Source: a virus | Taxonomy: Duplodnaviria > Caudoviricetes | IMG/VR virus record: IMGVR_UViG_3300021400_000080 | Span: 1 to 64,000 of that record | Length of the DNA stretch: 64,000 bases | Strand: one strand, 5' to 3' | In this document: in pieces, positions 2,765-35,753 of the stretch | Layout of the letters: each line of letters starts with the position of its first letter | Numbering within the stretch: position 1 is the stretch's first letter | Notes under the pieces: model-generated | Database searches by the model: none | What the model saw: only the letters and a program-made list of their open reading frames with translations | Told to the model about the DNA's origin: nothing | Made by a program: the position numbers and the translations under genes

Positions 2765-2925
2765 TCCTTATCCTTCCTCATCACTCCCTGTCCGGGATTG
2801 CTCATCGCAGCAAGGCACATCTGCAACAGCGACTCCGCATCCCCCAGGTCGGCCATGATGTAGGTATCGGTCTCTCTGACGATCTTGTCCTTGGGGATTT
2901 TGACAAACATGTGTTCGTCCGTCAC
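2761..2925 (-). CDS. Hypothetical protein
   Basis: GTG start overlapping the MTase stop; 54 aa. Confidence 0.55.
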   Translation of the reverse strand: MTDEHMFVKIPKDKIVRETDTYIMADLGDAESLLQMCLAAMSNPGQGVMRKDKE

Positions 2926-3587
2926 TCCATCCCCTCCTGACAGATTTCGTAGACGTGTTCGCACAACTTGACGGGGATGCGTGCGCGATCCCTCGCGCCC
3001 TTAATCGCCTGTGTTCCGCACTTGCTCCCCCTTGGCGCACGCTCATGGCATGGGTCTCCGTATCTGCACGGGGTCTTGAACCTCGGATTGGGGTGATTGG
3101 TCCATAGATCGGTCGGCTTCATCCTACTGTCTCCGTACTGGCAGTATGTTGTGGTGTAGCGTGTCATGAATCCATCCCTCTCTCTGTCGAGCATGAATCT
3201 CATGGTCCTCAATCCGGCACGGGGATTCTCGATGAAGAAATATTTGGGTGATAATTCCTCGATGAGTTCCAGCACATGCGCGTTCACACGGTCGCACATC
3301 CTCGCATAGTCGGTCTGCGGGTCCAGTTCCCCCGTCTCCTTGTTCTTGCGCCTGTGATGACCCATAGCCGCGACGGAATAGGAGCTGCAATCCGGGGATG
3401 CCCATATCACGTTCGGCTTGCCGCCGCACATCTTGATGCAATCCTCTGCGGTCAGCGAACCGATGTCAGCGTGGAGGGTGACATCGAATTGCTTATCCCA
3501 ATCCACGGTGTAAACCTCCCATCCGTGGGATCTGAATACATCTCCGACCGAGGACGTTCCGGCAAACAACTCTAACAATTTCGGCAT
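2922..3587 (-). CDS. Compact C5-cytosine DNA methyltransferase
   Basis: Motif I ELFAGTSS, motif IV WASPDCS, motif VI FIENP. Confidence 0.85.
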   Translation of the reverse strand: MPKLLELFAGTSSVGDVFRSHGWEVYTVDWDKQFDVTLHADIGSLTAEDCIKMCGGKPNVIWASPDCSSYSVAAMGHHRRKNKETGELDPQTDYARMCDRVNAHVLELIEELSPKYFFIENPRAGLRTMRFMLDRERDGFMTRYTTTYCQYGDSRMKPTDLWTNHPNPRFKTPCRYGDPCHERAPRGSKCGTQAIKGARDRARIPVKLCEHVYEICQEGME

Positions 3588-5280: not shown

Positions 5281-5982
5281 TTATGAGGAGATAAATCCAG
5301 ACAATCCCCCATTAAGTAGTGATTGTTGGGTCTCCTTGATTCTCTGTTCTGCCGTCCTGTAATATCCGGGGTCTATCTCGCATCCGATGAAGTTGCGGCC
5401 TTCGAGGACGGCTGCGACCCCGGTTGTACCGGACCCCATAAAGGGATCGAAAACCGTACCGCCCGGAGGACATGAGTTGCGGATCATCGTGCGTATGATG
5501 TCCACGGGTTTGATGGTCGGATGGTTGTATAGCTTCTTGTCCTTGGTATTCAGGGGGGTTATCCAATAGGTGTGGTGATCCGCGAATCCCCCATACAATT
5601 TAACTCCCGGCGAGCGTGCAAATAAACAATATTCCGTGTCACCGAGAAATTTGTTTGAACACATTGGAACTGGATTTGTTTTATGCCACGATAATAAAGC
5701 CGTATTGCAATTTTTAAAGTAAGGCAGATACTCTATAATCGCTTTCCAATTTCCCCACAGATATATGTTTGTTTTATCCATAATGCTCAAGACATCATTC
5801 ATAAGTTTAGCATCTACTCCCTTGGAGATAGATACCAATTCATTCTGATACTCGCGATCCCCGAATGACCCCCCCCCCCTGGAAACATGTGGCATTACAT
5901 AAGGCGGGTCCATGATGATGAGGTCGGCCTTGACCTTGGGGATGTAGTCGCGGCAGTCCCCTTCGTAGATCGTAACGGTCAT
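5281..5982 (-). CDS. N6-adenine/N4-cytosine DNA methyltransferase (beta class) with internal G11 tract
   Basis: DPPY catalytic motif, HPTIKP, DPFMGSGTT SAM motif; C11 run at 5869-5879. Confidence 0.9.
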   Translation of the reverse strand: MTVTIYEGDCRDYIPKVKADLIIMDPPYVMPHVSRGGGSFGDREYQNELVSISKGVDAKLMNDVLSIMDKTNIYLWGNWKAIIEYLPYFKNCNTALLSWHKTNPVPMCSNKFLGDTEYCLFARSPGVKLYGGFADHHTYWITPLNTKDKKLYNHPTIKPVDIIRTMIRNSCPPGGTVFDPFMGSGTTGVAAVLEGRNFIGCEIDPGYYRTAEQRIKETQQSLLNGGLSGFISS

Positions 5983-6173
5983 TCTACCGCCCTCCTGTTC
6001 CACTTATCGACCAATTCACCGCGCGCGGATGTTTCGCGGCTCTCGTAACCCTCCAGGATGCACCCGTTGTCCGGATGTACGATTGAGTAGCGTTGGGTCT
6101 TTACAATTCTATAATCCCTGATCGCCATACTCATCTCGCACCCACAGAACGGGCACGGCTTTAATCCGGTCAT
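5979..6173 (-). CDS. Lar-family (restriction alleviation) Zn-binding protein
   Basis: LKPCPFCG ... WNRR signature. Confidence 0.7.
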   Translation of the reverse strand: MTGLKPCPFCGCEMSMAIRDYRIVKTQRYSIVHPDNGCILEGYESRETSARGELVDKWNRRAVE

Positions 6174-15654: not shown

Positions 15655-15856
15655 GTCTATCATCTGACACGATACGATGGATAGCGTACTTGATGTTGCA
15701 CATCGGACAATGGCACGGATACTCCCTTTCGTAGCTGTCCTTGTCGCAGCGTGAACAATGTCCGAGATAACGTTCCGCATATCCCTTGATAGGGATCTTC
15801 GTTCCGCACCACGGACATACGGTCTCGCCGGGTTGTTCTTTCCACTCCCAGGTCAT
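15647..15856 (-). CDS. Cys-rich Zn-finger protein
   Basis: CPWC, CSRC, CPMC. Confidence 0.65.
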   Translation of the reverse strand: MTWEWKEQPGETVCPWCGTKIPIKGYAERYLGHCSRCDKDSYEREYPCHCPMCNIKYAIHRIVSDDRHE

Positions 15857-16434
15857 GCGGCCCACTCGTCCATCGACCTCTGCGGGGTCTTGCCGTCCAT
15901 ATCATCGACGATCACACCTAGGATGGCCGCGAAACAATCCACGACCACACTGTTCCCTGCGAAACGGTAGATCGCACTGTTGGAGTAGGTCGGCTTTTCC
16001 GTGACCTTGCCGTTCTTGGCGGTCTTGACGGTCTTGGCATCCATCAGACGATCTATCTCATCGTCGTCGTACCCCATCAGGCGCATACATTCGCGCGGGG
16101 TCAGTTTACGCACGCGCAATCTGGATACGTCGGTCTCATCGAGGGCATCTCCTATCTCTCCGGCATCGGACATCTTGTAGCTGCCCGACTTGTCGCGGTA
16201 GACATAGCCGACGTAGGGGTTGCCGTCCTTGTCGGTGAACACACCATCCGCGACATCGCCCATATAGCCGACATGCCCTATCTCGTGACCGATCCCGTCG
16301 TAAACGGGGATGTCCGGACCGTGGACCTCGTGGATACCGTGGCGGTATTCCCATTCCGCGACCGCGCCCTTGAGGGCATCTGTCAGACTGTCGTATCTCT
16401 TCGCGTTCTCTTCCTTACTCAATGTGTATTCCAT
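15853..16434 (-). CDS. C5 methyltransferase C-terminal subunit (motifs IX-X)
   Basis: RVRKLTPRECMRLMGY and YRFAGNSVVVDC; no motifs I-VIII. Confidence 0.85.
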   Translation of the reverse strand: MEYTLSKEENAKRYDSLTDALKGAVAEWEYRHGIHEVHGPDIPVYDGIGHEIGHVGYMGDVADGVFTDKDGNPYVGYVYRDKSGSYKMSDAGEIGDALDETDVSRLRVRKLTPRECMRLMGYDDDEIDRLMDAKTVKTAKNGKVTEKPTYSNSAIYRFAGNSVVVDCFAAILGVIVDDMDGKTPQRSMDEWAA

Positions 16435-16470
16435 TGTAGCACACTCGTTGTTCTATCCAGTGATTGTAGG

Positions 16471-16499
16471 TATAAATACAATTCCATACAATCACATAC
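16471..16499 (-). promoter_or_regulatory. Promoter-like element shared with the ERF gene upstream region
   Basis: GTATGTGATTGTATGGAATTGTATTTATA vs GTATGTGATTGTATGGAAATGTATATAAT at 35725-35753. Confidence 0.6.
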
Positions 16500-16677
16500 A
16501 ATCAATTGCCTTGACTACTACTCCTACCCCGCCGCCGGACCATGTGGTGATGGAGTTGCTTCTGCCGTGGGTGACGGGTGATTTGCTCTTACCGGGGAAC
16601 TCCGTGAAGATGGAATCTCCCTCGTATGCCTACATATATCCCGTAGGGTTATCGGCTCTGATCCTTATGCACTGCAT
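16492..16677 (-). CDS. MTase TRD-like module 12, in-frame TAG at codon 16 (16630-16632)
   Basis: MQCIRIRADNPTGYM*AYEGDSIFTEFPGKSK...SNSITTWSGGGVGVVV; matches the GYxEAxEGDSI...NTLTT...GVV repeat of phage C5 MTases. Confidence 0.75.
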
Positions 16678-16825
16678 CCTCTCTCTCCGTCATAACCATC
16701 ACTGCCTGACCCCCTCCGTTAATCGACGTTATCGTGGGGGATATTCCTCTCGGTGAATAGATCCTCTTCGCCATTATGTAACCCGATGGGATGTCCAATT
16801 CGGCTGCGACGATTATCCGACACAT
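16649..16825 (-). CDS. MTase TRD-like module 11
   Basis: Manual ORF ...KRIYSPRGISPTITSINGGG..., 58 aa. Confidence 0.7.
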   Translation of the reverse strand: MCRIIVAAELDIPSGYIMAKRIYSPRGISPTITSINGGGQAVMVMTEREDAVHKDQSR

Positions 16826-16997
16826 CCCAAACCACTACTCCCAATTCACCGGGTCTTGCCGTTACGGTTCCCGCTACCCCTCCCCCCATAACGGGGGTAT
16901 GACGATCCCCTACATAGGTCAGGAACACACAATCCCAAACATGGGCCGTCTTGAACTTTCTCTCTTGGTTCGCCACTATCCTTACCACGTCGGACAT
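16719..16997 (-). CDS. MTase TRD-like module 10
   Basis: VMGGGVAGTVTARPGELGVVV. Confidence 0.6.
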   Translation of the reverse strand: MSDVVRIVANQERKFKTAHVWDCVFLTYVGDRHTPVMGGGVAGTVTARPGELGVVVWDVSDNRRSRIGHPIGLHNGEEDLFTERNIPHDNVD

Positions 16998-17167
16998 AAT
17001 ACCGTACCTCCTCCGTCCTTACTGCGGATCGTACTGCTCTATCCGTCTGCACTGATTATCGCCTCGCCTTTATAATGCGGGTCTGCTGCGATACGGATGA
17101 TCCCCGATTGGGGGGATATACGACCCAGGTTGCTCACCTTCCAATGATTGCGGGTATCTTCTTCCAT
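16982..17167 (-). CDS. MTase TRD-like module 9, in-frame TAG at codon 43 (17039-17041)
   Basis: ...AIISADG*SSTIRSKDGGG aligns with VYSDEGICPTIPTGGGG. Confidence 0.7.
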
Positions 17168-17168
17168 G

Positions 17169-17540
17169 TTAAACCTCCACCGCTATCCAACCCGGATGAT
17201 TGGCGGTTATGGTCGGGGACAATCCTCTTTCGTGATATGCTCTGCCGCCCATCTCGAACACGTTGGGAACGGGGATGCTCACCCCGACTGCATCCCATCC
17301 TTCGATGCCCAACAGATCGCGTACCCTCGGCCATATAGACACTTCCGGGGGTGCGTTGTATCTATCCGTCCTGAACCAATGTTCGGCCTCTGTGACAGGA
17401 ACGGAAAGAGCATCCGCTACGCTGCGGATCGTCATCCCCTTACGCATACGCGCATCTTTAAGGACACGGGCGAGTTCTATGGAATCGAAATCCGGACGAT
17501 GGGATACCGTGAACAACACATCCAATTCGATGAGTCTCAT
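17169..17540 (-). CDS. MTase TRD-like module 8 containing an XRE-type HTH
   Basis: LKDARMRKGMTIRSVADALSV HTH followed by RAYHERGLSPTITA. Confidence 0.7.
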   Translation of the reverse strand: MRLIELDVLFTVSHRPDFDSIELARVLKDARMRKGMTIRSVADALSVPVTEAEHWFRTDRYNAPPEVSIWPRVRDLLGIEGWDAVGVSIPVPNVFEMGGRAYHERGLSPTITANHPGWIAVEV

Positions 17541-17688
17541 ATCCTCTCACCAATATCTTCGGCATCACGTTACCTCCCCCGCCCGTAGGGATGGTCGGAC
17601 AGATACCCTCATCGGAATAGACCCTCTTGAGACAGTCGTAGCCGTTGAGGGCGGGCAACGTGCATACCTGTTCACATCTCTTCGTCAT
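17458..17688 (-). CDS. MTase TRD-like module 7
   Basis: KRVYSDEGICPTIPTGGGGNVMPKILV. Confidence 0.75.
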   Translation of the reverse strand: MTKRCEQVCTLPALNGYDCLKRVYSDEGICPTIPTGGGGNVMPKILVRGYETHRIGCVVHGIPSSGFRFHRTRPCP

Positions 17689-17830
17689 GTATCAGCACCT
17701 TGATCTGTGTCGTTCTCCCGATTGCCGTGTGTATGGTCGGGGAACAATAATCGGGATCGTAGACCCTCCTGTGTTGTTCCAGCCAGCCGGGCCAATCGAG
17801 GATGGCTATGACCTTGCAACGATTCTCCAT
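17672..17830 (-). CDS. MTase TRD-like module 6
   Basis: Manual ORF ...RRVYDPDYCSPTIHTAIG..., 52 aa. Confidence 0.7.
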   Translation of the reverse strand: MENRCKVIAILDWPGWLEQHRRVYDPDYCSPTIHTAIGRTTQIKVLIHDEEM

Positions 17831-17957
17831 ATACTGCCACCAGTTTAGGGTCCTTATAGTCCCTGGATTCTATCGTGGGGGATATTCCTCTCGAATCGTA
17901 TATCCTCCCGGCTTTCTCATAGCTGCAATCAAGGGTCCCTATCTGTCTGCATCTCAT
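17685..17957 (-). CDS. MTase TRD-like module 5
   Basis: GRIYDSRGISPTIESRDYKDPKLV. Confidence 0.75.
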   Translation of the reverse strand: MRCRQIGTLDCSYEKAGRIYDSRGISPTIESRDYKDPKLVAVYGESLQGHSHPRLARLAGTTQEGLRSRLLFPDHTHGNRENDTDQGADT

Positions 17958-18123
17958 CCTCTTCCCTCACGAATATCATGGGTTGGTTCGCCTTGGCGAA
18001 AGCCAATGTTATAGTAGGACACAAACCTCTTCCTCCCCATACGACATTACATTTGTCGAATCCGGACGGACGGTAGTTGGGGAGGACGGCTATCTTCACC
18101 AATGCCTTAATCGGAGTCATCAT
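17929..18123 (-). CDS. MTase TRD-like module 4
   Basis: VVWGGRGLCPTITLAFAK. Confidence 0.7.
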   Translation of the reverse strand: MMTPIKALVKIAVLPNYRPSGFDKCNVVWGGRGLCPTITLAFAKANQPMIFVREEDEMQTDRDP

Positions 18124-18568
18124 CTTCAATCCTCCTTATTATTCCAAGATGTCCGATGTCCGTAGGTACGAGGGTAGGACAGACACAATCCTCATCCAAT
18201 AGGTGAGTCACCTCGAAAGAGAGCTGCCCGAAAGCAATATCATACCCCATCGGTTCGGACTTATCGGCTACGCGATGCCCATTGGACCATTTTCTCGGAT
18301 GTCTGTAATCAAGATAACCTTTTGCCAACAAATCGTCCAACATGGCTTGCAGTCCGTCACAATCATACAATTCCCGGATCATCTCTGTTGTAAGAGGTCT
18401 GCCTTCCTCTCCGGGATAACGTCTCCATCTGGACAATCTGCGACCCCTCAATATTATGTCCAACAATTCCCTCTGTTCCTTAGAGACTTCTCCTTTCAAG
18501 CACATATCCCACGAATGGATGACATTCTCGCCTCCGCGCTTGTCCGTGACAGTCCATCCGAGATTCAT
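18107..18568 (-). CDS. MTase TRD-like module 3 (large, resembles the variable region of a bacterial C5 MTase)
   Basis: DKRGGENVIHSWD..KGEVS..Q.ELL...LDDL..KGYL...LSFEV..LLD...PTLV.TD. Confidence 0.7.
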   Translation of the reverse strand: MNLGWTVTDKRGGENVIHSWDMCLKGEVSKEQRELLDIILRGRRLSRWRRYPGEEGRPLTTEMIRELYDCDGLQAMLDDLLAKGYLDYRHPRKWSNGHRVADKSEPMGYDIAFGQLSFEVTHLLDEDCVCPTLVPTDIGHLGIIRRIEDDDSD

Positions 18569-18738
18569 TTTACACACTCTTCCGAGACCCATACAAGTAT
18601 GAGGGGAGGGGGACACTTGATCCCCCAATTGGCTAAGACCGTTGGAGCATCCCCGGACGGGTCGAGGACGAGATCGCGGTTCCCGTAGGTTCCTTTACCC
18701 GTCAATCCCCGTCCGATGATCTTCAATGCGTACTTCAC
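18565..18738 (-). CDS. MTase TRD-like module 2
   Basis: Manual ORF (GTG start) ...RDLVLDPSGDAPTVLANWG..., 57 aa. Confidence 0.65.
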   Translation of the reverse strand: MKYALKIIGRGLTGKGTYGNRDLVLDPSGDAPTVLANWGIKCPPPLILVWVSEECVK

Positions 18739-18891
18739 CGACATAGACCAGACCCTCGATCACATTCTTAGCGAAATGTGCCGTGATAGTGGGTGCTAAT
18801 CCCCCCCCCCGTAGACACGGCCGTTCTGACCGAAGTGATTATCACCGAACATAAAGACGATTATACTCTTTTTTGCTGCGGTGCGTGCCAT
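18695..18891 (-). pseudogene. MTase TRD-like module 1, frameshifted at a G10 tract (possible phase-variable OFF state)
   Basis: FGQNGRVY-(G10)-LAPTITAHFAK; one more G restores a 65 aa ORF with the Y-x4-LAPT spacing of sibling modules. Confidence 0.7.
18801..18810. repeat. C10/G10 homopolymer
   Basis: Read directly. Confidence 0.9.
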
Positions 18892-20135
18892 TCCAGGTTG
18901 CCTTCCGTTATGAGGTAATTGCTGGTCTTTCTGCCACCCTCATGACAACTTATGCACAATGCTTTCCGTTCTCCGTGTTGGGGGTTCCAGCAGAATCCTC
19001 GCCCATTCTCCTTCTCCCTCTCCGTGGACCATATCAGACCCTTCAGACGATCCTGACTAAGATAATACTTCTCGTCCACGGGTTCGGGTTCGAGGTAGTC
19101 CCTCATACACTTGGTAAGCGGTACGGGTTTGGGCAGCTCCGGGGGTTTGCCATTCAGTTTGCTTATCACGAACAACCTCTTACGGTTCTGTGCAACTCCG
19201 TAGTCGCACGCATTGAGGACCTTCCAGGTGTGCTGGTAGCCGATTGCGGATAACTCGTCCATCAACTCGTCGAAATTCGCCTTGAACTTCTTGGATACCA
19301 TCATGGGTACTTCTTCCATGACGAGGTACTTGGGTCTCTCCTTCTCTTCCGTATTGCGGAGGATACGAGGAACCTCGAAAGCCAGCGAGGATCTTGTTCC
19401 GCTGTCCTTCGCATTACCCGCCAACCGTCCGGCATTGGAGATGTCCTGACAGTTATGAACGATGATACCGTTCACCGTGAACGAATGGCTGTCCTTGACC
19501 GTGAGATCGTAGACATCCGTTTTCTCGAATCCGAAAGATAAATTCACTATTGGGAACCATGCGAATCCGTTTTTAAATGTGGACCCAGGATACAACGACC
19601 AATTCCCGGCGATAGCATCGGGCCGTCCGAGATAATGCGACATGGTAAGATTTTTCGCCTCTATCCATTCGGGTTCGGTAAGTGACCCATCTACTATCTT
19701 ACAAGCATAGAATTTATGGTCGAAAGTGGCTCCGATTTCCTCATTACCGGATGCCTTGATACGCATAATCTCCTTATGTCCGGTCTTGCCCGCCCATTCC
19801 ACGGGATGCCATTGGCCGTCGTGGGACATCACCATATTCCCGACCTCGACTTCCTCGATGGGGATGTATCCCCTCTCTTTCGTGAGGACCATATCACCCT
19901 TGCGGATGCACGGGGGTGTCCAGAACAGAACGTCCACTTGATTCTCCCCTCCGATGTCGCGTACCTGGGTGATGTCCCCCAGGTTGCGGGTCTCTCCATG
20001 AAGGGTATCATACGCGCGTGCGGTCGGAGGGTCGAACTCGCACTGGAATACCATCTGATAGTCGATCCCCAATCTGTCGGCAGCGGAATGGTGCGCTCCG
20101 ATCCCGGAAAAGAATCCTCCGATACGCATCATCAC
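18861..20135 (-). CDS. C5 methyltransferase N-terminal subunit (motifs I-VIII) with mini-intein
   Basis: FFSGIGA (I), TPP/CQD (IV), MEEVP (VI), LNACDYGVAQNRKRLFV (VIII); motifs IX-X absent. Confidence 0.9.
   Translation of the reverse strand: MMMRIGGFFSGIGAHHSAADRLGIDYQMVFQCEFDPPTARAYDTLHGETRNLGDITQVRDIGGENQVDVLFWTPPCIRKGDMVLTKERGYIPIEEVEVGNMVMSHDGQWHPVEWAGKTGHKEIMRIKASGNEEIGATFDHKFYACKIVDGSLTEPEWIEAKNLTMSHYLGRPDAIAGNWSLYPGSTFKNGFAWFPIVNLSFGFEKTDVYDLTVKDSHSFTVNGIIVHNCQDISNAGRLAGNAKDSGTRSSLAFEVPRILRNTEEKERPKYLVMEEVPMMVSKKFKANFDELMDELSAIGYQHTWKVLNACDYGVAQNRKRLFVISKLNGKPPELPKPVPLTKCMRDYLEPEPVDEKYYLSQDRLKGLIWSTEREKENGRGFCWNPQHGERKALCISCHEGGRKTSNYLITEGNLEWHAPQQKRV
19452..19910 (-). mobile_element. 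Mini-intein (153 aa, no homing endonuclease) inserted before the catalytic Cys
   Basis: Starts CIRKGDMVLT; block B ATFDHKFY; ends VYDLTVKDSHSFTVNGIIVHN followed by +1 Cys. Confidence 0.9.
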
Positions 20136-20278
20136 ACATACCTCTCTTCGTAGATGAGATCCCTCTTACAGCGCGGGCAGCGGTAGACCGTCCTGCATCT
20201 GATGACCTCTCCTGCCACGTCGTTCCTCTGTTCCGTAACGACCTCGCGGCCGCACATGCAACAAACCATCTTCGTCAT
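20132..20278 (-). CDS. Zn-ribbon protein
   Basis: CCMCG...CPRC. Confidence 0.6.
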   Translation of the reverse strand: MTKMVCCMCGREVVTEQRNDVAGEVIRCRTVYRCPRCKRDLIYEERYV

Positions 20279-35724: not shown

Positions 35725-35753
35725 GTATGTGATTGTATGGAAATGTATATAAT
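35725..35753 (+). promoter_or_regulatory. Promoter-like element shared with the MTase C-subunit gene
   Basis: 18-bp identity plus TATA-like tail. Confidence 0.6.

What the first reader, a model, noticed from the sequence alone, without database searches (positions are those of the whole stretch)
15853..20135. Split, modular C5 methyltransferase: N-subunit + about 12 free-standing TRD-like mini-ORFs + C-subunit
Seen: motifs I-VIII are in 18861-20135 and motifs IX-X in 15853-16434. Between them lie 12 short, overlapping ORFs (52-153 aa), most carrying the R-(V/I)-Y-x4-(I/L)-(S/C/A)-P-T-(I/L) repeat typical of variable regions of phage C5 MTases. Seven are absent from the ORF track. Known: multispecific Bacillus phage MTases (SPR, phi3T, rho11s) carry several TRDs in one chain, and M.AquI and M.EcoHK31I are two-subunit enzymes. 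I do not know of a case with each TRD-like unit as its own gene. Inference: the catalytic halves assemble in trans with interchangeable specificity modules, or modules are fused by frameshifting or recombination, giving a tunable multi-specificity methylome against host restriction.
Basis: partly seen in the sequence, partly recalled or inferred. Interest (0 to 1): 0.9.

Follow-up and report, generated by a model that had tools for sequence, protein, structure and literature searches.

The report
Cytosine methylase encoded as separate mini-genes
This virus encodes its DNA cytosine methyltransferase as a catalytic gene, a closing gene and twelve tiny genes between them, each holding one DNA-reading module and each kept by selection, so one enzyme core probably uses many separate specificity pieces to protect viral DNA from host restriction.

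Summary
On the minus strand lie:
- an N gene (18861-20135) with motifs I-VIII;
- twelve TRD-like units (16492-18891), each in a different frame from its neighbour;
- a C gene (15853-16434) with motifs IX-X.

It is not a misassembly. An independent assembly of the source sample and contigs from a second sample reproduce every frame change except one poly-G run (G10 vs G11).

It is not a decaying gene. Against four close relatives every unit shows pN/pS 0.00-0.36 in its own frame, like the catalytic core. All 12 units begin with a conserved ATG, mostly behind a Shine-Dalgarno-like site.

Relatives gain and lose whole units as cassettes. The same layout recurs in unrelated bacterial phages.

- a 153-aa mini-intein sits directly before the catalytic Cys;
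- in-frame TAG codons lie in two units;
- "TRD1" is a conserved segment;
- the C gene has its own TRD-like head and a promoter-like element;
- poly-G and (GA)n tracts are strongly enriched in these genes.

This scan has noted the same architecture on other DNA (at least 18 genomes).

The parts
18861..20135 (-). N subunit gene: motifs I, IV, VI (EEV in place of ENV) and VIII, plus the conserved proximal segment of the variable region (about 18864-18990)
   Evidence: PF00145 E 7e-36. pN/pS 0.06-0.21 against L019, L029 and L039. About 70 of the 120 best database relatives are N-only ORFs of 240-275 aa that end at the same point.
19452..19910 (-). 153-aa mini-intein between PP and CQ of motif IV; the +1 residue is the catalytic Cys
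   Evidence: PF14890 E 5.6e-10 and Hint_2. It starts CIRKGD, has TFDH, and ends VHN|C. It is precisely absent in L029 and L039. It differs from L019 at only 9 of 459 nt, while the flanks have pS 0.31-0.43.
18695..18891 (-). unit 2 (MARTAAKKSIIVFMFGDNHFGQNGRVYGGGG|LAPTITAHF...), split in this record by the G10 run at 18801-18810
   Evidence: Frames. Logan's contig of the source sample has one more C, which puts the unit in frame. The run is G12 and in frame in L019, and G13 and out of frame in L029.
18565..18744 (-). unit 3 (ATG 18744)
   Evidence: pN/pS 0.05-0.10. Its TGA stop overlaps the ATG of unit 4 as ATGA.
18107..18568 (-). unit 4, a long module (about 150 aa) ending in CVCPTL...LGII
   Evidence: Frames. 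It is absent as a clean 463-465-nt cassette in L029 and in run X3. No Pfam match.
17929..18123 (-). unit 5 (ATG 18123, behind AAGGAGG)
   Evidence: It is intact here, and broken at a G run in L029, L031 and L039. pN/pS 0.25-0.36.
17685..17957 (-). unit 6 (unit proper 17835-17957); its tail runs out of frame over unit 7
   Evidence: pN/pS 0.00 against L031. The tail is unconstrained, while the same bases are constrained in the frame of unit 7. Deleted in L029 and L039 by a 133-nt TGC-to-TGC join.
17672..17830 (-). unit 7
   Evidence: pN/pS 0.12-0.13. Its ortholog P0065 is called as a 53-aa protein elsewhere.
17458..17688 (-). unit 8 (its ATG overlaps the stop of unit 6 as ATGA)
   Evidence: pN/pS 0.00-0.07. 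Its ortholog P0063 is a 53-aa ORF with a nearby stop.
17169..17540 (-). unit 9, a long module with an HTH-like head
   Evidence: Weak HTH_31 match. pN/pS 0.05-0.10. The same module type sits in line in the continuous array P0001. Absent in run X3 (skip of 373 nt).
16982..17167 (-). unit 10 (TAAcATG junction behind GGTGGAGG); in-frame TAG at 17039-17041 inside the G-x-S-x-T-I motif
   Evidence: Absent in L031 and in run X5.
16719..16997 (-). unit 11 (ATG behind GGAGGAGG)
   Evidence: pN/pS 0.12-0.14.
16649..16825 (-). unit 12
   Evidence: Absent in L031 and L039.
16492..16677 (-). unit 13, ortholog of the 'last TRD' that is fused to motif IX in L026; in-frame TAG at 16630-16632
   Evidence: pN/pS 0.12. 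The TAG is kept in L031 and sits at the same aligned position as a TAG in a unit of L026.
16435..16503 (-). spacer holding repeated GATTGTATG and a TTTATA box about 40 nt before the C start: a promoter-like element
   Evidence: Sequence. A 24-nt copy with 2 mismatches lies at 35728-35751 (+), ahead of another operon; 0 such matches are expected by chance.
15853..16434 (-). C subunit gene: about 105-aa TRD-like head, then motif IX (RKLTPREC) and motif X (GNSVVV)
   Evidence: PF00145 profile positions 254-322. The head aligns with the TRD head of the C gene of L032. pN/pS 0.20 against L039.

Best explanation
This is a working, polycistronic version of a multispecific cytosine-5 DNA methyltransferase.

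Shown:
- The catalytic part (N), twelve recognition modules of about 50 to 150 aa, and the closing part (C) are separate reading frames.
- Each module has its own conserved ATG and usually a ribosome-binding site.
- Each is kept by purifying selection in its own frame.
- Whole modules are exchanged as cassettes among related viruses.

Inferred:
- The modules are translated as separate small proteins.
- N (after the intein splices out and restores the PCQ catalytic loop) and C form an M.AquI-like two-chain core. That core already has a conserved proximal segment and one TRD-like head.
- The free modules dock on this core one at a time and give it further target sequences. Viral DNA is thereby methylated at many sites and escapes several host restriction systems.
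- A second layer, the poly-G run in unit 2 here and the poly-G, poly-C and (GA)n runs in relatives, switches single modules or the core on and off by slippage. This harms only the affected cistron because the others start on their own.
For: Real sequence:
- Two independent assemblies reproduce all junctions.

Selection:
- pN/pS is 0.00-0.36 for every unit in its own frame against L019, L029, L031 and L039. The other two frames give about 1 or more.
- In overlaps only the downstream unit's frame is constrained.
- The layout is shared by relatives that differ at pS of about 0.2-0.4, so selection acted on the split state.

Start signals:
- 12 of 12 units have ATG at the unit's first strand, against 24 of 155 internal units with any Met there in continuous arrays.
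- Predicted anti-SD pairing averages -7.9 kcal/mol for unit starts and -4.3 for the other 78 ATGs of the region (Mann-Whitney p 9e-5).
- Junctions include ATGA and TAAnATG forms.

Covalent linkage is dispensable:
- The same two units are fused in L003 and ATGA-split in L002, with pN/pS 0.07.

Recurrence:
- The N | mini-ORFs | C layout occurs in unrelated phages L032/L033 and L036/L037. In the latter a two-unit ORF lies after motif X, where no frameshift could join it to the enzyme.
- 24 of the best 150 profile hits are TRD-only proteins of 117 aa or less.
- About 70 of 120 relatives are N-only ORFs ending at the same point.

Precedent for chain splitting:
- M.AquI, M.EcoHK31I and fragment complementation of monomeric C5 MTases (PMC3404938).

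Repeats:
- 31 tracts in about 23 kb of MTase loci against 2 in 44.6 kb of flanks.
- The window's only two G/C runs of 10 or more both lie in MTase genes.
- The unit 2 run is 10, 11, 12 or 13 long in different assemblies and relatives.
Against: - No protein, RNA or methylation data exist for any of these pieces.
- No known C5 MTase uses a free-standing TRD.
- Split experiments on M.SssI indicate that the small domain should be intact for complementation (PMC3404938).
- A single unit folded alone gave a low-confidence model (pLDDT 63). In the model of the monomeric relative the unit is the one unresolved part (pLDDT below 50 for residues 272-313). The structures therefore give no docking rationale.
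- Upstream tails vary from 4 to 146 nt of overlap, as random frameshifts would give.
- Purine-rich start contexts may partly come from acidic linker codons.
- Motif VI reads EEV, not ENV.
- Two units need TAG to be read as a residue.
Confidence: 0.5

Rival explanations
1. The pieces are joined during expression. Ribosomal frameshifting or transcriptional slippage at each junction would make one or a few long multi-TRD polypeptides like the single-chain enzymes of Bacillus phages.
For: - Nine of the 12 frame steps go in the same (+1) direction.
- An A6G stretch lies at the N to unit 2 junction, and G runs do shift frames in relatives. In L039 a G8 run fuses N directly to unit 2.
- Purifying selection in each frame fits this reading as well as it fits separate proteins.
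Against: - No repeat or conserved slippery site lies at 11 of the 12 junctions.
- About twelve successive shifts would leave almost no full-length product.
- The conserved ATG and SD at every unit start are not needed under this model.
- Upstream stops lie 4-146 nt past the next start and move between relatives.
- A TRD ORF after motix X in L037 cannot be joined this way.
Confidence: 0.12
2. The mini-ORFs are a store of silent cassettes. They act only after recombination moves one into an expressed position next to N or C, as with pilS or vls cassettes.
For: - Relatives differ by clean cassette gains and losses at homologous positions.
- Selection on cassettes is expected if each is expressed from time to time.
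Against: - Silent cassettes do not need start codons or ribosome-binding sites, yet all 12 have them.
- No long flanking repeats or inverted repeats that could drive frequent conversion were found.
- No variant with a swapped expressed site was seen in the two samples laid.
Confidence: 0.1
3. The small proteins are made but do something other than guide the methylase. For example they could bind restriction enzymes or DNA sites as decoys.
For: - Selection and start signals only show that the proteins matter, not what they do.
- A TRD-only ORF sits outside the N-C interval in L037.
Against: - The units are homologous, residue for residue, to the TRD of monomeric relatives and to units of continuous arrays.
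- They always sit beside N and C genes.
- A fragment of about 50 aa folding alone was not predicted with confidence.
Confidence: 0.1
4. This is a broken or misassembled single-chain methylase gene that no longer works, or works only as N+C.
For: - Continuous relatives exist: L021; L003 with four units in one frame; and long arrays such as P0001 and P0007.
- Tails after the frame changes look random.
- Some relatives carry breaks inside the core (L002, L003, L026, L029).
Against: - Independent assemblies agree.
- pN/pS is about 0.1 in every unit.
- Frame changes fall at unit boundaries in 11 of 12 cases, and none falls in the 1.9 kb of N and C.
- The ATGs are conserved.
- The layout is shared across relatives and across unrelated phages.
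Confidence: 0.05

Closest known systems
Multispecific C5 methyltransferases of temperate Bacillus subtilis phages (SPR, phi3T, rho11s; Behrens et al. 1987, cited in PMC4081073)
   Same: One catalytic framework with several TRDs in tandem between motifs VIII and IX. The unit size of about 50 aa and the RVY...PT[IL] core are as in TRDs. The presumed role is protecting viral DNA from several restriction systems.
   Different: Those enzymes are single polypeptides with three or four TRDs. Here there are 12 units, each its own cistron in a shifted frame, separate N and C genes, an intein in motif IV, and a host that is probably archaeal.
M.AquI, the two-subunit C5 methyltransferase (as described in PMC3404938)
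   Same: Motifs I-VIII plus the proximal variable region are on one chain. The distal variable region plus motifs IX-X are on another. The N and C genes here fit that pattern.
   Different: M.AquI has two adjacent genes and one specificity. Here twelve further module genes lie between the halves.
M.EcoHK31I (as described in PMC3404938)
   Same: A small extra polypeptide, encoded in an overlapping alternative frame, is needed by a C5 MTase.
   Different: Its small chain carries motif IX, not a TRD. There is one such chain, not a dozen.
Phase-variable Mycoplasma CpG C5 methyltransferases with mid-gene poly(G) or poly(GA) tracts (PMC9465063)
   Same: Poly-G and (GA)n tracts lie inside C5 MTase coding sequence, and their length differs among strains and sets the reading frame. 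M.MpeI is also the best PDB sequence match of the units.
   Different: Those are cellular single-chain enzymes with one tract acting as an on/off switch. Here the tracts lie in a viral, multi-cistron locus, and in this window only in unit 2.
Type I restriction-modification HsdS specificity subunits
   Same: It may work like them: a separate, exchangeable specificity protein serving a methylase core, varied by recombination and repeats.
   Different: There is no sequence or fold relation. Type I systems methylate adenine and HsdS holds two TRDs with coiled coils. This is a resemblance of logic only, and it was not tested.

Membership tests
DNA cytosine-5 methyltransferase (PF00145) | Motifs I (FxGxG), IV (PCQ), VI (ENV), VIII (QxRxR), IX and X | tested here: met
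   Pfam E 7e-36 for N and 2.4e-6 for C. The motifs read FFSGIG, PPC|QDIS (restored after splicing), QNRKR, RKLTPREC and GNSVVV. Motif VI reads EEV, and this is invariant in the clade.
DNA cytosine-5 methyltransferase (PF00145) | Two-domain M.HhaI-like fold | tested here: met
   Tested on the monomeric relative L021, not on the window's chains. The AF2 model has pLDDT 87 and matches M.HhaI and M.MpeI (Foldseek E 2e-20, TM 0.65-0.75).
Multispecific phage C5 MTase (SPR type) | Several TRDs in tandem between motifs VIII and IX | tested here: met
   Twelve aligned units. The unit profile finds 2091 proteins, the best of them continuous arrays with 4-7 units.
Multispecific phage C5 MTase (SPR type) | All TRDs and both core halves in one polypeptide | tested here: not met
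   There are 14 reading frames separated by stops. The frame changes are confirmed by independent assemblies.
Multispecific phage C5 MTase (SPR type) | Each TRD confers its own target sequence | not testable with these tools
   This needs methylome data from expression of single units.
M.AquI-type two-subunit C5 MTase | Separate genes for motifs I-VIII plus proximal variable region, and for distal variable region plus motifs IX-X | tested here: met
   The N ORF ends after the conserved proximal segment. The C ORF has a TRD-like head plus motifs IX-X.
M.AquI-type two-subunit C5 MTase | Only two chains, encoded side by side | tested here: not met
   2.4 kb holding 12 further cistrons lies between them.
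Repeat-driven phase-variable methyltransferase | Simple repeat inside the coding sequence whose length sets the frame | tested here: met
   The G run at 18801-18810 lies inside unit 2. Relatives carry G, C and (GA)n runs, 31 in about 23 kb against 2 in 44.6 kb of flanks.
Repeat-driven phase-variable methyltransferase | Length varies within a population, and switching is reversible | tested here: inconclusive
   Two assemblies of one sample give C10 and C11, and contigs of a second sample break at the run. Relatives have G12 and G13. Only contigs were available, not reads, so assembly error is not excluded.
Class 1 mini-intein | Cys1, block B TxxH, terminal HN, nucleophile at +1; extein intact without it | tested here: met
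   The sequence reads CIRKGD...TFDH...VHN|C. PF14890 E 5.6e-10. L029 and L039 read PPCQDIS with no insert.
Pseudogene | Relaxed selection (dN/dS near 1) and randomly placed disruptions | tested here: not met
   pN/pS is 0.00-0.36. Disruptions lie at unit boundaries and the starts are conserved.

The most novel reading that the evidence does not exclude
A cytosine-5 methyltransferase that works like a Type I system. A two-chain catalytic core would take free-standing recognition proteins of about 50 aa as interchangeable specificity subunits. Viruses would trade these as cassettes and switch them singly by repeat slippage. Here it occurs in what is probably a virus of a pyrrolysine-using methanogen, with TAG read as a residue inside two modules and an intein gating the catalytic cysteine.
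Probability: 0.33. Interest if true: 0.85.

Novelty: new variant of a known kind. Interest (0 to 1): 0.7.

Why it matters
- How one C5 methylase core can serve several TRDs has been open since the Bacillus phage enzymes were described.
- A natural system in which the TRDs are separate, selected genes makes that directly testable: mix core and single modules and read the methylome.
- If the modules act in trans, this would be the first separate specificity subunit for a cytosine-5 methylase. It would also give a ready kit for programmable 5mC marking.
- It would explain how viruses of the rumen and gut keep pace with varied host restriction.
- For annotation, such loci are now called as one 'DNA methylase' plus unnamed mini-ORFs or pseudogenes. 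The data here say they are neither junk nor errors.

Tried and rejected
Binding was therefore not tested.
- AF2 of unit 8 alone gave pLDDT 63. AF2 of the monomeric relative left the unit unresolved. Neither gives structural insight into docking.
- A blastn search of the region against phage records found no match.
- A scan of species genomes for the N part found no relative, so no provirus or host was identified.
- The repeat search found no long direct or inverted repeats that could act as recombination or inversion sites. A shufflon-type switch is rejected.
- The unit profile against PDB sequences gave only a weak match to the TRD region of M.MpeI (E 0.18).
- Literature searches found no description of TRD-only genes.
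- General sequencing error is rejected. Seven ORFs of 498-1334 aa elsewhere in the window are unbroken, and independent assemblies agree.
- Stop-codon counts over all long ORFs were too noisy to settle whether TAG is a stop.

Full report
**What is there**

The window is part of a 75.7-kb virus record with terminal repeats. On the minus strand:
- ORF 18861-20135 matches the C5 methylase family over motifs I-VIII.
- ORF 15853-16434 matches motifs IX-X.
- The 2.4 kb between them reads, in rotating frames, as a row of units of about 50 aa. Two units are longer, about 125-150 aa.

The units share this pattern: first strand, RVY, three or four residues, G-x-[SCA]-P-T-[ILV], then P-K-[IL]-[LV]-V. The strict motif occurs five times here and nowhere else in six frames of the window.

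Three points complete the count of twelve units, u2-u13:
- The poly-G run in u2 must be taken as G11.
- Two in-frame TAG codons (17039-17041 and 16630-16632) must be read through.
- Every unit then starts with ATG.

- The N ORF holds a 153-aa mini-intein (19452-19910) between PP and CQ of motif IV, so the +1 splice nucleophile is the catalytic cysteine. Close relatives L029 and L039 lack it precisely. Against L019 it differs at only 9 of 459 bases while the flanks have pS 0.31-0.43, which points to recent spread. A larger intein sits at the same site in an unrelated phage, L034.
- The 'first TRD' at the end of N is a segment conserved in all relatives, including monomeric enzymes that have exactly one unit.
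- The C protein begins with about 105 aa that align with a TRD type found at the head of C genes elsewhere.
- A repeated GATTGTATG plus TTTATA element precedes C. A copy with 2 mismatches lies at 35728-35751, before another operon.

**Is it an artefact?**

No.
- Logan's own contig of the source sample covers 16400-20200 with no difference except one extra C in the run 18801-18810.
- Eight contigs from a second sample are at least 99% alike without indels, and they break at that run.
- Long genes elsewhere in the window are unbroken.

Eleven of the twelve frame changes are therefore real sequence. The twelfth, inside u2, is either an assembly error or length variation.

**Is it decay?**

No.
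- Four close relatives are 88-95% identical in DNA: L019, L029, L031 and L039.
- Against them every unit has pN/pS 0.00-0.36 in its own frame. Most are at or below 0.14, like the catalytic core at 0.06-0.21. The other two frames give about 1 or more.
- Where a unit's out-of-frame tail overlaps the next unit, only the next unit's frame is constrained.
- The relatives share the same junction plan, so selection has acted on the split state.
- In a second subclade the same two units are fused in L003 and split with an ATGA overlap in L002, with pN/pS 0.07. Covalent linkage is therefore dispensable.

**Start signals**
- All 12 units have ATG at the first strand, and it is conserved in relatives.
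- In continuous arrays only 24 of 155 internal units have any Met within ten residues of that point.
- Predicted pairing to the 16S tail averages -7.9 kcal/mol for unit starts and -4.3 for the other 78 ATGs in the region (p 9e-5).
- Junction forms include ATGA (u3/u4, u6/u8) and TAAcATG (u9/u10).
- Caveat: the acidic linker codons are purine-rich in any case.

**Cassette exchange**

Units are gained and lost whole, and breakpoints lie at homologous points of neighbouring units.
- u4: missing in L029 and run X3.
- u6: removed in L029 and L039 by a 133-nt join between the TGC codons of u6 and u7; replaced by other sequence in X3.
- u9: missing in X3.
- u10: missing in L031 and X5.
- u12: missing in L031 and L039.
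- L029, L031 and L039 hold an extra unit between u7 and u8.

No long repeats or inverted repeats were found.

**Recurrence**
- A profile of the units finds 2091 proteins. The best are continuous arrays of 4-7 units, but 24 of the top 150 are TRD-only proteins of 117 aa or less.
- Contexts were checked in two unrelated bacterial-phage lineages. L032/L033 shows N | four to six mini-ORFs | C. L036/L037 shows the same plus a two-unit ORF after motif X, with a strong ribosome site, coupled to the next gene.
- About 70 of the 120 best relatives of the full-length enzyme are N-only ORFs ending at the same point. About a dozen are monomers.
- This scan has noted the same architecture in at least 18 other genomes. 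Those notes were read after my own tests and are not used as evidence.

**Repeats**
- Poly-G, poly-C and (GA)n tracts are about 30-fold denser in these loci than in their flanks (31 in about 23 kb against 2 in 44.6 kb).
- They sit at conserved places: before motif VI, before the proximal segment, and in GGGG stretches of units.
- They are in frame in some relatives and out of frame in others.
- In this window the only two G/C runs of 10 or more lie in u2 and in a second methylase gene, the N6/N4 type at 5281-6003.
- Mycoplasma C5 methylases are known to phase-vary through such tracts (PMC9465063).
- In a multi-cistron locus a slip silences one module only. That may be why the two features travel together, but this is inference.

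**Mechanism**

The evidence best fits separate small proteins that serve an M.AquI-like N+C core. The known parallels are M.AquI, M.EcoHK31I and fragment complementation (PMC3404938).

That step is not shown:
- The single-unit model was poor.
- The unit is unresolved in the model of the monomeric relative, whose core matches M.HhaI and M.MpeI.
- The M.SssI split data caution that the small domain prefers to be intact.

**Host**

Several features fit an archaeal host with rare TAG stops, as earlier notes on this genome propose:
- TATA boxes lie 24-30 nt before many start codons.
- TGA or TAA ends all 30 confident genes checked.
- TAG is kept at the same aligned unit position in the window, L031 and L026.

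No host was identified here. The runs that hold the virus or its relatives are ruminant gut samples.

Noticed in passing
window 19452-19910 (-): A mini-intein sits directly before the catalytic Cys of motif IV. It is much less diverged than its flanks against L019 and is absent in L029 and L039. A larger intein occupies the same site in an unrelated phage (L034:1242-3011), and several database relatives carry PF14890.
   Followed up: partly
window 17039-17041 and 16630-16632 (-); L031 about 1365; L026 about 1952; L021 K231 and K307 of P0151: In-frame TAG codons lie inside selected TRD units and inside a continuous relative. The TAG of u13 is kept in L031 and aligns with a TAG in a paralogous unit of L026, where other sequences have E, D or H. 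None of 30 confident genes in the window ends in TAG. This fits TAG being read as a residue.
   Followed up: partly
window 5281-6003 (-), run at 5869-5879: A second DNA methylase gene (N6_N4_Mtase, E 1.7e-27) carries a G11 run on its coding strand about 125 nt from its start. It is in frame in this record and is a candidate on/off switch.
   Followed up: no
window 2922-3587 (-): A 221-aa ORF gives a weak match to the first third of the C5 methylase profile (E 6e-4, below the cut-off). It may be a third, truncated or divergent methylase.
   Followed up: no
window 16473-16496 (-) and 35728-35751 (+): A shared 24-nt element (2 mismatches) with a TATA-like box lies ahead of the C gene and ahead of an operon on the other strand. 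It looks like a common promoter or operator.
   Followed up: partly
window 18990-19320 (-); alignment A2: Motif VI reads EEV instead of the usual ENV. This is invariant across this virus clade, while more distant relatives in alignment A8 keep ENV.
   Followed up: no
window, downstream of 29404, 43619, 50785, 52830 and 61383 (+): A recurring AAACCTCTTACCC-like motif follows the stop codons of several plus-strand genes. It may be a terminator or processing signal.
   Followed up: no
L039:5734 (G8 run): In a 59-kb relative seen in at least 13 samples, a G8 run shifts the N frame inside the conserved RKTDNF segment and fuses N in frame to unit 2, giving a 303-aa product found identically on 15 contigs. 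A repeat may thus select between 'N alone' and 'N fused to a unit'.
   Followed up: partly
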